64,000 bases of DNA from Octopus vulgaris (Eukaryota): positions 42,284,001 to 42,348,000 of the forward strand of contig OX597835.1 of assembly GCA_951406725.2 (NCBI GenBank), read 5' to 3'. The position numbers are program-made. Positions 42,301-56,756 of this stretch are shown piece after piece (position 1 is the stretch's first letter; the number at the start of each line of letters is the position of its first letter).

Positions 42301-44801
42301 GACTTCAACAACCAATATAGTGCTACCTAGACTAATTGATTAGATTTCCAATAATCTTCAATATTATATTGACAATATCTGTTTAGATTTACTCTCTAAT
42401 TTCATAACCTTGATGATAAATTAATTGGTTTCTCTCAGAAATGTCTAGTACACATTTCTTGTTATCGTTTCCATGATTCTCATTACCGTTTCCATATTTC
42501 TTTTGTTCCGTTCTTCAATTGAAATCTGCGACAGTTTTATACAATTAAGACCCTTTTCTCCATTGATTTATCCTTCGTTGGTAATTAAACCGCCTTTTAT
42601 GTTGTCATAAACACACTTGAAATTACTTTGAGACCGCAATTTAATGCAGATCGGATCTGTATATGAAACGATGACGGCTGTTTAAGACTGGTTCACACAA
42701 TGTGTTATGAATATTTATAAACAAGCTGACAATAACAGCAACAGAAATAAACCTGTGAAGCAAAGCTTTGAGCAAAACAAAACCCAGATTCTTTATTGTT
42801 AGTACATATTGTTGTTATATTGTATGTACGTATGTTGTTTACTGCATTGTGCTTTGTAACAAAGTATGTGTGTGTGTGTGTGTGAGACTGCTGCTCGTTA
42901 TTAGGTATATAGATGAATGAAATGATTAGGATAGTTTCAATGGAATATATTTCTCTGTTAATGTGTTTAATTCTTGATAAACCAGTCGTAATCTATAATG
43001 TTGTGGAATTTTTGTGAGCAGATAGTTTCCCACTAAGAGGACTCCGTGTAGTCAGCTGGGAAAAACTGCAGGAAAAGAATGAACAGAAATGTTAGAAACG
43101 TGTTAAACAATGAGAATCTTTTGATGGGGGAAGTTTTTATGGTGGAGTGGTTATGGTGTTGATCTTGCGGTTCATAGGATTCATTTCTCAGATCGGACAT
43201 TGTGTTCTCAAGCAAGGTACTTCATTTCACATTGCCTCTATAAGCTCAGCTGAAAATGAACAGCTGTGGCATCTGGGGATGAGGGTGGGGAGCAGAGGGG
43301 GGTTAATTCTGTGACAGACTGGTGTCCTTTACAGGGGTGGTGGTGGTGGTGGTGGTGGAGTCTTAGACTTTTGATCTAGATTCCTTGTAATCTGAATAAG
43401 CCTCAAAGGAAATATCTTTTGATGTTGAGTTGTGAAAAAAAATTTCTGGTAAGAAATCTGTTTCCTAACCACTTGGTTCCAGGTTCCAGTCCCACCGTGT
43501 GGTCGCAGTCTAATGACTGAAACAAGTAAACGAACACAAAGACACAAAGACACACACACACACATGCATCGTTTATTCTTTTATCTGTTTGTCATTTGAC
43601 TGCGGCCATGCTGGAGCACCACCTTGAAGTATTTTAGTCAAATAAATTAACCCTGGAACTTTTTTAAAGCCTAGCACATATTTTGTCGGTCACTTTCACC
43701 AAGTCATGAGGATGTAACCATACCGACACCGGTTGTCAAGTAGTGGGAGAGGACAAAGACACACACACATATACACAACGGGTTTCTGTCTACAAATCCA
43801 TTCACAAGGCTTTGGTTGGTCTGAGGCTATAGTAAAAGACACCTGCTTAGGCAAGTTTCTTACCACTCAGTCATGCCTGCACCTATATATGAAGACACTT
43901 GTTGAAGGTGCTTGGAACTTGAATTTAATATCGCAAGTTGTGAGACAGATTCTGTTTCAGTTTCAGAACCTGACAATCAAAAAAAAAAAAAGTCCATCTC
44001 CTCTACAACCTGTATCGAGCACTCTCTGCATTGTCCAACACAAACCAATAGTATGTGTGTGTTTGTGAGAGAGGGAGAGCTGCAAAAATGAAGTGAGTCA
44101 GTCATAATAACGAAGGAGAGGAGAAAAGGAACGAGAGAAGGAGAGTAAAGAGGGACGACTTTTCAAATTTGCAACATGTAGTTTGTAAATGGGGGAGAGA
44201 AATTCTTTGTCAAAGAAGAAATGGTTCTGCTTTGAACTGCCGAACGAAGACAACCATTTGTCACCAAAACTAAATTCAAGGTAGATTGGAATTAGGAAAG
44301 TTGAAGAAATGCTGCAAAGTGACTCTAAGGGACACGGGATCAAATCGAAGCAAAGATCCCGGTAAAAAGAATAACGACAATTCAAGCTTGAAGCAGAAAA
44401 TAAACGACCACTGAACTGAAGCCAGAATAAACCCCATTATTTTTGATGGGTACTACACCAGTAGAGAGAAAGAAAGAGAAGGGGGGGGGATCGAGCTAAA
44501 AAGCTTTGGACAGCCTTGTAAGGGTTCAACCATGCGTTTATGGAGTGTCTTTGCGGTAGGTGACTGCCATCTGTCTGCCCACTAATTCGTGGATTACGTG
44601 TGCTCCGTAGGAATGTTCGTTCCTCCTTTCAAAACTAAATATTAAATGAATGCGTGTGGCAGGAAGAGGAGAGAGAAATATTTTAAATATCAAGGACTTA
44701 GAAAGCCTTCATTAAGCACAGTCTTTTGCACAACGACTTCGTTGTATTCTCTCACACACCTTTCTCCCTCTCTCTTACAAATCCTCTCTCTTACACCTTT
44801 C

Positions 44802-44835
<34 letters not shown>

Positions 44836-54800: not shown

Positions 54801-56756
54801 ACCTAACAGTTCAGCAAGAGTGTCCTGGGGTCGATTTGCTTGACTAAACCCTTCAAGGCTGTGTATCAGCATGGCCACGGTCAAATGACTGAAACAAAAT
54901 ATAAAAGATATACACACGCATACATACACACACACACTAGTAATACACTGTTTGATGGTACAAGTGTAATATATAGAATGTGTGCACACTTACATGCAGG
55001 TGTGTATGTGGTGATTTGCTGTACTTGAGAAGACGTGTCAAGCTAAGCAAACTCGCTGTCTTCCACACAAACAGGCTTCTTGTCCTTTACAGATGATGGT
55101 GCCATTTAAGAAGCCCCCATGCCGGTGGGTGCTGTGTTAATGCACCATTGCTGGAACTGCATTAATGCACTCATGTCAGTGCTGCTAAATGCACCTGTGA
55201 TGGTGATGTGTAAAAAGCACCCAGCACACTCTGTAAAGTGGTTTGTGTTAAGGAGGGCATCCAGCTGTAGAAACCATGCCGCAACAGACAGATGGGGTCT
55301 AGACAGCTCCCTTCTTCTACCCAGCTCCATATCAAACTGTCCAACCCATGCCAGTATGGAGGGCAGATGTTAAACGATGATGGTGATGATGATGATGATG
55401 GTATGTGTGTATTTGCATGTTATTTCTATTAATATATTGTTTTTAAAGTTTATCATTTTAAAGGAAAACTGTTTAAAAGTTGGAAATTAACACTTGAATC
55501 CCAGAAGATTATATTTAACTTTTTTGTTACCATATTTCTACTGAAATGCACAGTTTTTATTAATTAACACATCCAATTTAACTTGGATGTGCTATTAACA
55601 TTAATGAGATATTTGCTTTACTGACTTAGTTAACAGGTGAACAATACAAAACACAGTGAACAGGTGAACAAAACCTTGCTAATACAGTTAATTAGTTCTT
55701 TAATATACATGATTAACAAGTGAACTATACCTTAATAAACATGTTTAACAGGTGAACAATATTTGAATAAATGTGGTTAACATATGAACAATGCTTTGAT
55801 AAACACATGTGCACAATACCTTAATAAACACAGCTAGCAGGAAAATACTACTTTAATGAGTGTGGTCAACAGGTGAACAAAACCTTTCTCACTCAGTGAA
55901 CAGGTGAATGAAGCCAAACAGTTTGTCCTGTTTGTTTCCAGTTGATTCATTAATTTATTTCCTTTGGTTAATTAATATCGAAGTCCTTCTTGTACTAATT
56001 ACCCAAATTTAGTGACAGTTTAATCAAGCCTATTACCTCTCCCTCACCATCACTACTGTTTACTGCTATTTGCTCAGCAGAGCGAGTTGTTATGGTAACA
56101 AATGGGGGATATTCATCAAGAGATTAGTTGAATAAATAATAACGAGAGCTTATAATTAAAACTTGGTTGATGTGTAGACTTGTATGGCAGGTGAGAAACT
56201 TGGGGTGGGGGTGAGGAATGAAATAGGTCTGCTTTCATGTAATGTTGTTGTTGTTGTTGTAAAGCCTCAGGTGATCCCTGATGGAATGGATCCACAGCAG
56301 GTAAATAAGACCTACATCTGATGTCTGTTGTTCCGAATATAATCCCAGCCTCCGTTTGGCTGAAGACCATTCTGCACTGAATGGTATGGAGTTGTATGGC
56401 TGTGGGGTTAGGGAGTTTGCTTCACAACCATGAGGTCTTGAGTTCAACCTCACTGTGTGGCATCATGGACCTCGGGCACATGACATCTACTGTGGTGTTG
56501 GGTTGACCAAAGCCTTGCGAGTGAATCTGGTGGATGGAAACTTGTAGGACGCCTGTTGTGTGTGTGTGTGCATATATATGTGTGTGTGTATATATCATGT
56601 CATCATTTAATGTCCATCTTCTATGTATGCATGAGTAGAGTGGTCAACAGGAGCCCGGCCAGGTAGAAAATGTACCCTAGGCTAGTGTCTGTTTAGGTGG
56701 GGATTTTATGGCTGAATGCTCATCCTAACACCAACCACTCCCCAGATACATGTATG

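What the first reader, a model, noticed from the sequence alone, without database searches (positions are those of the whole stretch)
44080..56310. Cluster of phase-matched alternative first exons in the 20-kb intron: a variable N-terminus system for a short spectraplakin
Seen: the only phase-2 intron in the window (41463-61385) is also the longest. It contains a CpG-enriched, repeat-poor zone (about 44-47 kb) and at least four ATG-initiated mini-ORFs ending in AG|GT at phase 2: 44189-44280, 44540-44559, 46122-46201 and 56281-56300. Each would splice in frame to exon 16 (S-QNKLDEALL...). Established: spectraplakins end in further spectrin repeats, EF-hands and a GAS2/GAR microtubule-binding domain, and dystrophin uses internal promoters for short C-terminal isoforms. 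Inference: several internal promoters produce isoforms without the actin-binding head but with the microtubule-binding tail and interchangeable short N-terminal tags. I do not know whether this is annotated.
Basis: partly seen in the sequence, partly recalled or inferred. Interest (0 to 1): 0.8.

Follow-up and report, generated by a model that had tools for sequence, protein, structure and literature searches.

The report
Internal first exon, short octopus spectraplakin
One of four proposed mini-exons inside a 20-kb intron of an octopus MACF1/Shot-type cytoskeletal linker gene looks like a genuine, conserved alternative first exon for a short isoform that keeps only the microtubule-binding tail; the other three are what chance alone would give.

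Summary
The window holds part of an octopod spectraplakin (MACF1/Shot-like) gene on the + strand. All four mini-ORFs exist exactly as written, and the 41463-61385 intron is phase 2.

The cluster itself is not a signal. The intron holds 21 ATG-started phase-2 mini-ORFs ending AG|GT. Dinucleotide shuffles give 20.4 +/- 4.6, and the minus strand has 29.

One candidate, 46122-46201, stands out on independent evidence:
- Its peptide (MDDGSYPTSNSADYEFLVWPNVDTSY) matches the N-termini of two ~680-aa proteins from short unnamed contigs, P0002 and P0003. In both, the leader joins directly to the exon-16 sequence SQNKLDEA.
- It sits at the start of the window's only CpG-undepleted kilobase (o/e 1.47 against 0.40).
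- It has an in-frame upstream stop and is the first substantive ATG after a TATA-like box.

Gastropod RefSeq isoforms (Babylonia X2, Physella X4) and an annelid model start at the same boundary, with acidic leaders.

The other three candidates (44189, 44540, 56281) have no support. The verdict is one internal leader exon for a tail-only isoform (three spectrin repeats, EF-hands, GAR). It is not a multi-tag system. No transcript from this species could be checked.

The parts
41290..41462 (+). It ends with two bases of a codon (phase 2), donor AAG|GTAAGA.
   Evidence: junction 41462/61386, 112 of 115 residues identical to P0001 across the junction.
41463..61385 (+). Phase-2 intron of 19,923 nt that holds the internal leader exon.
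45785..45792 (+). TATA-like box (TATATAAG), 330 nt upstream of the ATG. It is a candidate core promoter element. This is inferred, not shown.
   Evidence: Between it and 46122 the only other ATG (45979) is followed at once by TAA.
46001..47000 (.). The only CpG-undepleted kilobase of the window (39 CpG, o/e 1.47 against a window mean of 0.40). It starts about 120 nt before the leader ATG and runs about 0.8 kb into the intron downstream. This is the signature expected of a stretch that stays unmethylated in the germ line, as promoters do (inference).
46000..46121 (+). GC-rich stretch with (GCC)n and (ATC)n runs just before the ATG, taken as 5' UTR. There is an in-frame TAA at 46086-46088. A pyrimidine tract plus AG at 46090-46119 leaves open an acceptor here.
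46122..46201 (+). Coding part of the alternative first exon: ATG + 26 codons + AG, donor TAG|GTAAAG, phase 2. It encodes MDDGSYPTSNSADYEFLVWPNVDTSY, and the split codon with 61386 gives S.
   Evidence: tblastn of P0002/P0003: 60% identity, E 8e-6 and 4e-5; 65% and 62% identity; leaders alone: E 5e-9 and 3e-8, the only significant hits in the window.
61386..61545 (+). Exon 16, shared by the long and short forms. A spectrin repeat begins about 8 residues after the junction.
   Evidence: 100% identical to O. bimaculoides A0A0L8H113; residues 18-53 match spectrin profile positions 10-44.
62570..62737 (+). Next shared exon (17). It is also covered by P0002/P0003 straight after exon 16. The 3' end given is the end of the tblastn match, not a mapped donor.
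44189..44280 (+). Mini-ORF 1 of the finding. It is present but unsupported and is treated as chance.
   Evidence: donor score 5.9 against 7.0-13.2 for 13 real donors; two unrelated repetitive proteins only.
44540..44559 (+). Mini-ORF 2 of the finding. It is present but unsupported, with a weak donor.
   Evidence: donor score 1.8, rank 282 of 1298 GT sites in the intron.
56281..56300 (+). Mini-ORF 4 of the finding. It is present and has a good donor, but has no promoter-like context and no homologue. It is unsupported.
   Evidence: CpG o/e 0.28; donor score 8.7, rank 10 of 1298.
45645..45719 (+). First copy of a 75-nt direct repeat that, with 46841-46915, brackets the putative promoter, the leader exon and most of the CpG-rich stretch. 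Its meaning is unknown.
   Evidence: the 18-nt core occurs twice in the window; 0 of 100 shuffles reach 2 matches.
46841..46915 (+). Second copy of the 75-nt direct repeat (92% identical).

Best explanation
The intron between exons 15 and 16 of this octopod spectraplakin gene holds one genuine alternative first coding exon, 46122-46201. It is most likely driven by an internal promoter just upstream, at about 45.8-46.1 kb.

Transcripts that start there skip the actin-binding head, the plakin domain and nearly the whole rod. The 26-codon leader splices in phase 2 to exon 16.

The product would be a protein of roughly 680 aa with these parts:
- a short, acidic, probably disordered leader;
- the last three spectrin repeats;
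- two EF-hands;
- the GAR (GAS2-related) microtubule-binding domain;
- a disordered basic Ser/Thr/Pro-rich tail.

Such a protein can bind microtubules but cannot link them to actin. It would act as an actin-independent microtubule binder or stabiliser, or as a competitor of the giant isoform.

Shown:
- the exon's anatomy;
- its homology to the N-termini of short cephalopod-like proteins, where it is joined to the exon-16 sequence;
- the local lack of CpG depletion.

Inferred:
- the promoter and the start-site position;
- use of the exon in this species;
- the protein's activity.

The other three mini-ORFs are chance open frames.
For: 1. Homology. With exon 16 as query (53 aa, proteins of 94-2000 aa), 12 of 38 candidates passed. 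Two of them are 682 and 676 aa and sit on contigs of 2634 and 2895 nt. That is too short to hold introns of this size, so they are most likely transcripts. They begin MDDGDYDYHSNSSGHGDYQFLVWPNVDSSY|SQNKLDEA and MDDDDDLHSNGYGDYQFLVWPNVDTSY|SQNKLDEA.

2. Mapping. Back on the window, their N-termini land on 46122-46199 and nowhere else, and then on exons 16 and 17. The block [EQ]FLVWPNVD[TS]SY and the split Ser codon are kept. The rest of these proteins is 84% identical to the octopus protein P0001, so the leader has been kept over a substantial divergence.

3. Exon anatomy. There is an in-frame TAA 12 codons upstream. The ATG has G at -3 and G at +4. The only ATG between the TATA-like box (45785) and 46122 is ATG-TAA. 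The donor is TAG|GTAAAG.

4. Context. 46001-47000 has the highest CpG o/e of the 64 one-kb bins (1.47 against 0.40). 44-49 kb is nearly free of the interspersed repeats that fill 49-61 kb.

5. No other gene explains the zone. There are 0 Rfam matches and 0 tRNAs in the window, and 0 Pfam matches in 8 ORFs of 43.7-48.4 kb.

6. The same isoform type exists elsewhere. Eight of the 27 relatives held after start with Met and an acidic leader placed directly on this boundary. They are P0002, P0003, Physella acuta isoform X4, Pomacea canaliculata P0007 and the unnamed P0008, Babylonia areolata isoform X2, Nucella lapillus and Capitella teleta.

7. Architecture of the stand-in P0003. Pfam finds 3 spectrin stretches, EF-hands at 392-454 and GAS2/GAR at 476-544. 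In the AlphaFold model, residues 1-28 are below pLDDT 50 and without secondary structure. Helices run from 26 to 389 and the tail 546-676 is disordered (mean pLDDT 66.6, pTM 0.38, 6-sequence alignment).
Against: - No transcript, CAGE or junction read from this species could be consulted. The two key proteins come from unnamed contigs of another cephalopod-like source (89-91% identical on exon 16), and their upstream sequence could not be read.
- No short form with this leader from a named octopus was found among proteins of 94-2000 aa or 371-1183 aa.
- The donor scores 6.0 on a crude matrix built from 13 real donors of the window. That is just below their range of 7.0-13.2, and 45 other GT sites in the intron score as well or better.
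- TATA-like strings are common in this AT-rich sequence: 16 matches in 44-47.5 kb.
- The CpG-rich stretch lies mostly downstream of the exon and is AT-rich (GC 0.33).
- A pyrimidine tract plus AG right before the ATG allows the true start site to lie further upstream.
- Gastropod and annelid leaders give no significant match to the window (best E 0.14, wrong strand). Deep homology of the leader itself is therefore only suggested by shared features.
Confidence: 0.7

Rival explanations
1. Same leader exon and same short protein, but the start site is not at about 45.8-46.1 kb. In this reading 46120-46201 is a second exon, entered through the acceptor-like pyrimidine tract plus AG at 46090-46119, from an untranslated first exon further upstream in the intron (or even from the far-upstream promoters).
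For: The sequence tattctctctccttctctcggggaaaaaag|TTATGG looks like an acceptor. The CpG o/e of 44201-44800 is slightly raised (0.57-0.85). TATA-like strings are too common to fix a start site.
Against: If exon 15 were joined to 46120, the frame would read AG+T, TAT, GGA, TGA and so stop (read). Entry from the long transcript would therefore not give this protein as a continuation. The GC-rich, CpG-rich stretch begins at 46000, just before the ATG, as 5' UTRs next to start sites often do.
Confidence: 0.15
2. One reading: several internal promoters and leader exons (44189, 44540, 46122, 56281) are used and give interchangeable N-terminal tags.
For: All four are in phase with exon 16. 56300 has a donor in the range of real donors (8.7). 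44189 has A at -3 and G at +4, and a donor as good as that of 46201.
Against: The count of such mini-ORFs equals the shuffle expectation, and the minus strand has more. None of the three peptides matches an N-terminus among the 27 relatives. The 30-aa peptide found only two unrelated repetitive proteins in 1.84 billion representatives. Only two leader-bearing clusters (P0002, P0003) turned up in the search with the P0003 N-terminus (2 of 5 candidates). 56 kb has CpG o/e 0.28.
Confidence: 0.07
3. Null: none of the mini-ORFs is used in this species. The 46122 exon is a relic, or a look-alike of an exon used in other cephalopods.
For: There is no same-species transcript evidence. No named octopus short isoform appeared in the searched protein set. 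The donor is slightly below the range of the window's real donors.
Against: A dead exon would not be expected to keep all of the following: its ATG, an open 26-codon frame, the 11-residue block FLVWPNVDTSY identical to P0003, the phase-2 GT donor, and a CpG-undepleted surrounding.
Confidence: 0.08

Closest known systems
Short 'MACF1, isoforms 6/7-like' isoforms annotated in gastropods (Babylonia areolata isoform X2, 728 aa; Physella acuta isoform X4, 695 aa), and the Pomacea, Nucella and Capitella models
   Same: They start with Met and a short acidic leader (MDDDDSGGDYPLY..., MNDDDSGGEYPF..., MDPHYDEEF...) placed directly on the exon-16-equivalent boundary. They continue with spectrin repeats, EF-hands, GAR and a Ser/Thr/Pro-rich tail.
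   Different: The leader sequences give no significant match to the window. Homology of the leader exon itself between gastropods and cephalopods rests on position and shared features only (MDD start, G-x-Y-P, N-V-x-S-S). These are automatic annotations, and I found no paper that describes them.
Dystrophin short isoforms from internal promoters (Dp260, Dp140, Dp71)
   Same: A giant spectrin-repeat gene with internal promoters gives N-terminally truncated isoforms that keep the C-terminal functional domains (PMC7372313; abstract seen in the listing).
   Different: It is a different gene family with a different C-terminal module (no GAR). Several internal promoters are documented there, while here only one has support. 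That each dystrophin short form has its own first exon and short unique N-terminus is recalled, not read here.
Nesprin-1/-2 short isoforms
   Same: [quoted passage not shown]
   Different: The retained module is the KASH domain, not EF-hand/GAR. The isoforms are many, and have been verified by RT-PCR and western blots.
Known alternative starts of spectraplakins (Shot A-D types; dystonin and MACF1 types 1-3)
   Same: It is the same gene family, in which alternative promoters with short lead sequences are a family trait (10.1101/122010 and PMC3352950; passages read).
   Different: All starts described in those passages lie at the 5' end of the gene. They vary the CH1/CH2/plakin head and keep the rod. 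A start before the last three spectrin repeats is not mentioned in them. Their isoform figures and supplements could not be seen.
GAS2 / GAS2-like proteins
   Same: They are small proteins with a GAR microtubule-binding domain, called 'miniversions of spectraplakins' (PMC7791176; abstract seen in the listing).
   Different: They are separate genes and have a CH domain. The short form here has no CH domain, and has spectrin repeats and EF-hands instead.

Membership tests
Spectraplakin (MACF1 / dystonin / Shot) gene | Rod made of spectrin repeats | tested here: met
   The exons of the window map to the rod of O. bimaculoides A0A0L8H113 (17 exon matches, 67-100% identity). The exon-16 peptide matches Pfam Spectrin weakly on its own (E 0.0044, below the gathering score). 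Homologues match it firmly.
Spectraplakin (MACF1 / dystonin / Shot) gene | C-terminal EF-hands plus GAR (GAS2-related) domain | not testable with these tools
   The window ends at 64000, before these exons. They are present in the orthologue P0001 and in P0002/P0003, so they are inferred for this gene.
Spectraplakin (MACF1 / dystonin / Shot) gene | N-terminal calponin-homology actin-binding domain and plakin domain | not testable with these tools
   They lie upstream of the window. The fragment P0001 does not reach them either.
Alternative first exon driven by an internal promoter | ATG-started frame closed upstream by a stop and ending at a donor in phase with the shared downstream exon | tested here: met
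   TAA at 46086-46088, ATG at 46122, donor after 46201, phase 2 as at 41462/61386.
Alternative first exon driven by an internal promoter | Transcripts that join the leader to the shared exon | tested here: inconclusive
   Met in two unnamed cephalopod-like proteins on 2.6-2.9-kb contigs. It could not be tested for the species of the window.
Alternative first exon driven by an internal promoter | Mapped transcription start (CAGE, 5' RACE) and promoter chromatin | not testable with these tools
   Only indirect signs are available: CpG o/e 1.47 at 46001-47000, a TATA-like box at 45785, and no substantive upstream ATG.
Alternative first exon driven by an internal promoter | Conservation of the leader peptide beyond what neutral intron sequence would keep | tested here: met
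   60-65% identity with an identical 11-residue block. E is 5e-9 and 3e-8 for the leaders alone against the 64-kb window, and there is no other significant hit.
   21 observed against 20.4 +/- 4.6 in 300 shuffles. The minus strand has 29.
   Only 46122-46201 has support. 44189, 44540 and 56281 have none.

The most novel reading that the evidence does not exclude
The leader exon marks an ancient, so far undescribed class of spectraplakin isoform. This is a 'tail-only' protein (three spectrin repeats, EF-hands, GAR, basic tail) made from an internal promoter. It would be conserved at the same exon boundary across cephalopods and gastropods, and perhaps annelids. Its acidic-aromatic leader (MDD...G-[DE]-Y-x-[FL]) would be a functional docking motif rather than a mere start. 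It would be a natural counterpart of the EF-hand/GAR/C-tail constructs used experimentally (my recollection of Shot work). It would give lophotrochozoans an actin-independent microtubule regulator encoded inside the giant gene.
Probability: 0.35. Interest if true: 0.55.

Novelty: new member of a known kind. Interest (0 to 1): 0.4.

Why it matters
Spectraplakin reviews describe isoform diversity at the head of the protein and in the plakin-repeat insert (passages read). A promoter placed before the last three spectrin repeats would add a short microtubule-only product to the family's repertoire. This is the arrangement that dystrophin and the nesprins use for their short isoforms.

For cephalopod genome annotation, it is a concrete and testable first exon that no named octopus protein in the searched set carries.

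For the scan, it shows two things. Counting phase-matched ATG...AG|GT frames in a long intron has no discriminating power. A local lack of CpG depletion, together with cross-species peptide conservation, does.

Tried and rejected
- **Direct search with the leader.** The stop-to-stop frame around it has only 38 codons. I therefore asked the question in reverse: exon 16 as query, and residues 1-40 of the database protein P0003.
- **Joined model.** I did not build or search a joined leader + exon 16 model.
- **Mini-ORF 1.** The 30-aa peptide went against 1.84 billion representatives. It found two hits, both repetitive and unrelated to spectraplakins. This library collapses isoforms, so the negative is weak.
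- **Mini-ORFs 2 and 4.** At 6 aa they are too short for any search.
- **Donor scoring.** A matrix built from 13 real donors does not separate the supported exon from chance sites.
- **Other genes in the CpG-rich zone.** There are no Rfam families and no tRNAs. None of 8 ORFs has a Pfam domain.
- **Gastropod and annelid leaders against the window.** Nothing significant was found.
- **EB1-binding motifs.** There are no [ST]x[IL]P motifs in 5 of 5 short forms examined, so I make no claim about plus-end tracking.
- **75-nt direct repeat.** The similarity does not extend beyond the 75 nt, so I could not class it as a transposon end.
- **Literature.** Five searches brought up no paper describing a C-terminal short spectraplakin isoform or a cephalopod MACF1 isoform. 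In one search, none of the 15 listed papers held the word spectraplakin.
- **Not available.** The supplements and figures of the Shot review, which list all annotated fly and mammalian isoforms, could not be seen.
- **Not used.** I did not use complex prediction, fold search or the atlas search, because none would change the verdict.
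Full report
**What the window is**

With the exon-16 peptide as query, the best hit is the Octopus bimaculoides 'GAR domain-containing protein' A0A0L8H113 (P0001, 1946 aa, 100% identical on this exon). P0001 maps to 17 exon-sized matches on the + strand, from 1968 to 62737. 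Per-exon identities are 67-100%. I take the window to be from an octopod close to, but not the same as, O. bimaculoides. This is an inference and I did not pursue it. The gene is a spectraplakin (MACF1/dystonin/Shot type): a spectrin-repeat rod here, with EF-hands and a GAS2/GAR domain in the homologues downstream.

**Checking the observation**

The four ATG-started frames end in AG|GT with two bases left over.
- Exon 15 ends at 41462 and exon 16 starts at 61386, with a split AG|C serine codon before QNKLDEALL.
- Of the 13 junctions I could resolve out of 16, 11 are phase 0, one is phase 1 and only this one is phase 2.

The cluster of phase-matched mini-ORFs carries no information, however.
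- The intron has 71 AGGT sites. Of these, 21 close an ATG-started open frame in phase 2 (20 in phase 1, 10 in phase 0).
- 300 dinucleotide-preserving shuffles give 20.4 +/- 4.6, and 46% reach the observed number.
- The minus strand has 29. Other equally long stretches of the window have 12-20.

The 'CpG-enriched 44-47 kb zone' is really one kilobase.
- 46001-47000 has 39 CpGs and o/e 1.47, against 0.40 for the window. It is the top of the 64 bins, and the next best are 0.70-0.76.
- 44-46 kb is at 0.38-0.56.

The zone 44-49 kb is indeed almost free of the interspersed repeats that fill 49-61 kb.

**The one candidate that is real**

I did not build or search a joined leader + exon 16 model.

- Among the 12 proteins found (38 candidates, 94-2000 aa), two are 682 and 676 aa (P0002, P0003). 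They lie on contigs of only 2634 and 2895 nt. Such contigs cannot contain introns of this size, so they are most likely assembled transcripts.
- They begin MDDGDYDYHSNSSGHGDYQFLVWPNVDSSY-SQNKLDEA... and MDDDDDLHSNGYGDYQFLVWPNVDTSY-SQNKLDEA.... The window's 46122-46199 reads MDDGSYPTSNSADYEFLVWPNVDTSY.
- tblastn places their N-termini on 46122-46199 (60% identity). The next residues fall on exon 16 and then exon 17.
- With the leaders alone, these are the only significant matches in the 64 kb (E 5e-9 and 3e-8).
- The rest of these proteins is 84% identical to the octopus protein. The leader has therefore been kept across a real evolutionary distance, including the split serine codon.
- A search with the N-terminal 40 residues of P0003 found only these two clusters among proteins of 371-1183 aa (2 of 5 candidates). 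I saw no named octopus protein with this start.

**Anatomy around the exon**

- An in-frame TAA lies 12 codons before the ATG.
- The ATG has G at -3 and +4.
- Between a TATA-like box (TATATAAG, 45785) and the ATG, the only other ATG is followed at once by TAA.
- The 120 nt before the ATG are GC-rich, with GCC and ATC runs.
- The donor is TAG|GTAAAG. It scores 6.0 on a small matrix built from 13 real donors of the window, whose range is 7.0-13.2. It is therefore ordinary to weakish, and 45 other GT sites in the intron do as well or better.
- A pyrimidine tract plus AG ends two bases before the ATG. I therefore cannot exclude that the true start site lies further upstream and that this is a second exon.
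- If exon 15 were spliced to that AG, the frame would stop after three codons. It is not a cassette exon of the long form.
- A 75-nt direct repeat (92% identical, 45645-45719 and 46841-46915) brackets the whole unit. The similarity does not extend beyond it, and I cannot explain it.
- Nothing else accounts for the zone. There are no Rfam families or tRNAs in the window, and no Pfam domain in 8 ORFs between 43.7 and 48.4 kb.

**The other three candidates**

- None matches the N-terminus of any of the 27 relatives held at that point.
- 44189 (30 aa) found only two repetitive, unrelated proteins among 1.84 billion representatives. This is a weak negative, because that library collapses isoforms.
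- 44540 has a poor donor (1.8).
- 56281 has a good donor (8.7) but sits in CpG-poor sequence (o/e 0.28) and encodes six residues.

They behave like the other 17 chance frames.

**What the product would be**

I used P0003 as a stand-in, since the tail exons lie outside the window.
- Pfam finds three spectrin stretches, EF-hands (392-454) and GAS2/GAR (476-544).
- In an AlphaFold model from a shallow 6-sequence alignment (mean pLDDT 66.6, pTM 0.38), residues 1-28 are unstructured and of low confidence.
- Helices run from residue 26 to 389, followed by the EF-hand and GAR folds. Residues 546-676 are disordered.
- The exon-16 peptide aligns to the spectrin profile from position 10. The leader is therefore grafted almost exactly onto the start of a repeat.
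- I found no [ST]x[IL]P motif in five short forms, so I do not claim EB1 binding.

The mechanism I commit to has three steps. An internal promoter fires inside the big intron. The leader is spliced to exon 16. The resulting ~680-aa protein binds microtubules through GAR plus the basic tail, but cannot bind actin. It would act independently of, or in competition with, the giant cross-linker. The activity is inferred from what these domains do in MACF1 and Shot (established knowledge; reviews read in part).

**Breadth**

A profile of six short forms found 25 proteins (7999 candidates scored). The 27 relatives held after that search sort as follows:
- Eight start with Met and an acidic leader directly on this boundary. 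They are P0002, P0003, Physella acuta isoform X4, Pomacea canaliculata P0007 and the unnamed P0008, Babylonia areolata isoform X2, Nucella lapillus and Capitella teleta.
- Eight carry the exon-15-like sequence before the boundary (the long-form junction).
- Two (Lottia, Sinanodonta) start a few odd residues upstream, which looks like read-in from the intron.
- One partial protein starts exactly at the boundary.
- The remaining eight lack the boundary motif or are vertebrate fragments.

The caenogastropod leaders (MDDDDSGGDYPLYSRS...SSNVSSSGSS) share the MDD start, a G-x-Y-P element and N-V-x-S-S with the octopus leader. They give no significant match to the window, so I call homology of the leader itself suggestive only.

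**Comparison with what is known**

- Internal promoters that give head-less short isoforms are well known for dystrophin (PMC7372313, abstract in the listing) and for the nesprins (PMC3981789, abstract in the listing).
- For spectraplakins, the passages I read list alternative starts only at the head of the gene (Shot A-D, dystonin and MACF1 types 1-3). This covers two reviews: 10.1101/122010 and PMC3352950.
- Five literature searches brought up no description of a tail-only isoform or of cephalopod MACF1 isoforms.
- The isoform figures and supplements of the Shot review could not be seen and might list such transcripts.
- My recollection that fly and mammalian databases hold no ~700-aa tail-only isoform is unverified.
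- Automatic annotation already carries this isoform type in gastropods. I therefore class the octopus exon as a new member of a known kind.

**What stayed unchecked**

- Any transcript, start-site or chromatin data from this species.
- Other cephalopod genomes.
- The DNA of the P0002 and P0003 contigs.
- The closed collections (metagenome contigs, viral contigs).
- Paper supplements.

**Verdict**

Noticed in passing
window 25423-25539 (compare 24654-24830): A second, partial copy of a spectrin-repeat exon lies about 770 nt downstream of the original. About 45 nt of upstream intron, the acceptor and the first ~115 nt of the exon are nearly identical (one mismatch in the aligned block). The similarity then ends abruptly. 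It could be a recent partial duplication, a pseudo-exon or an assembly artefact.
   Followed up: partly
window 7490-7714: A 225-nt open exon (75 codons, phase 0 at both ends, acceptor cctcag|, donor |gtaagt) encodes spectrin-repeat-like sequence. It is absent from the O. bimaculoides model P0001, which joins 6420 to 9752 directly. It is either a cassette exon or an omission in that model.
   Followed up: partly
window about 4700-5280: A GC-rich (0.62), CpG-containing minisatellite lies inside an intron. All six frames are open, with a 9-residue period in the translations, which means a 27-nt unit. It is the densest CpG stretch of the window by count, though not by o/e.
   Followed up: no
window 45645-45719 and 46841-46915: A 75-nt direct repeat (92% identical) brackets the putative promoter, the leader exon and most of the CpG-rich stretch. 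Its 18-nt core occurs only at these two places in the window. The flanks are unrelated.
   Followed up: partly
window 46090-46119: A pyrimidine tract followed by AG ends two bases before the leader ATG. This is an acceptor-like site that could make the leader exon a second exon.
   Followed up: no
window 17015-17500 (+) and 23380-23664 (-): Open frames whose translations look to me like the C-terminal part of non-LTR retrotransposon reverse transcriptases. This is resemblance by eye and recall only, and I ran no family search.
   Followed up: no
window 45315-45540: A GATA/GACA-type tandem array of about 220 nt lies 600 nt upstream of the leader exon.
   Followed up: no
P0019 (unnamed, 816 aa): A more distant relative (46% identical to P0003) also starts with a short leader (MGSSLILR) right at the equivalent repeat boundary. 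The tail-only form may therefore exist in a further, unidentified lineage.
   Followed up: no
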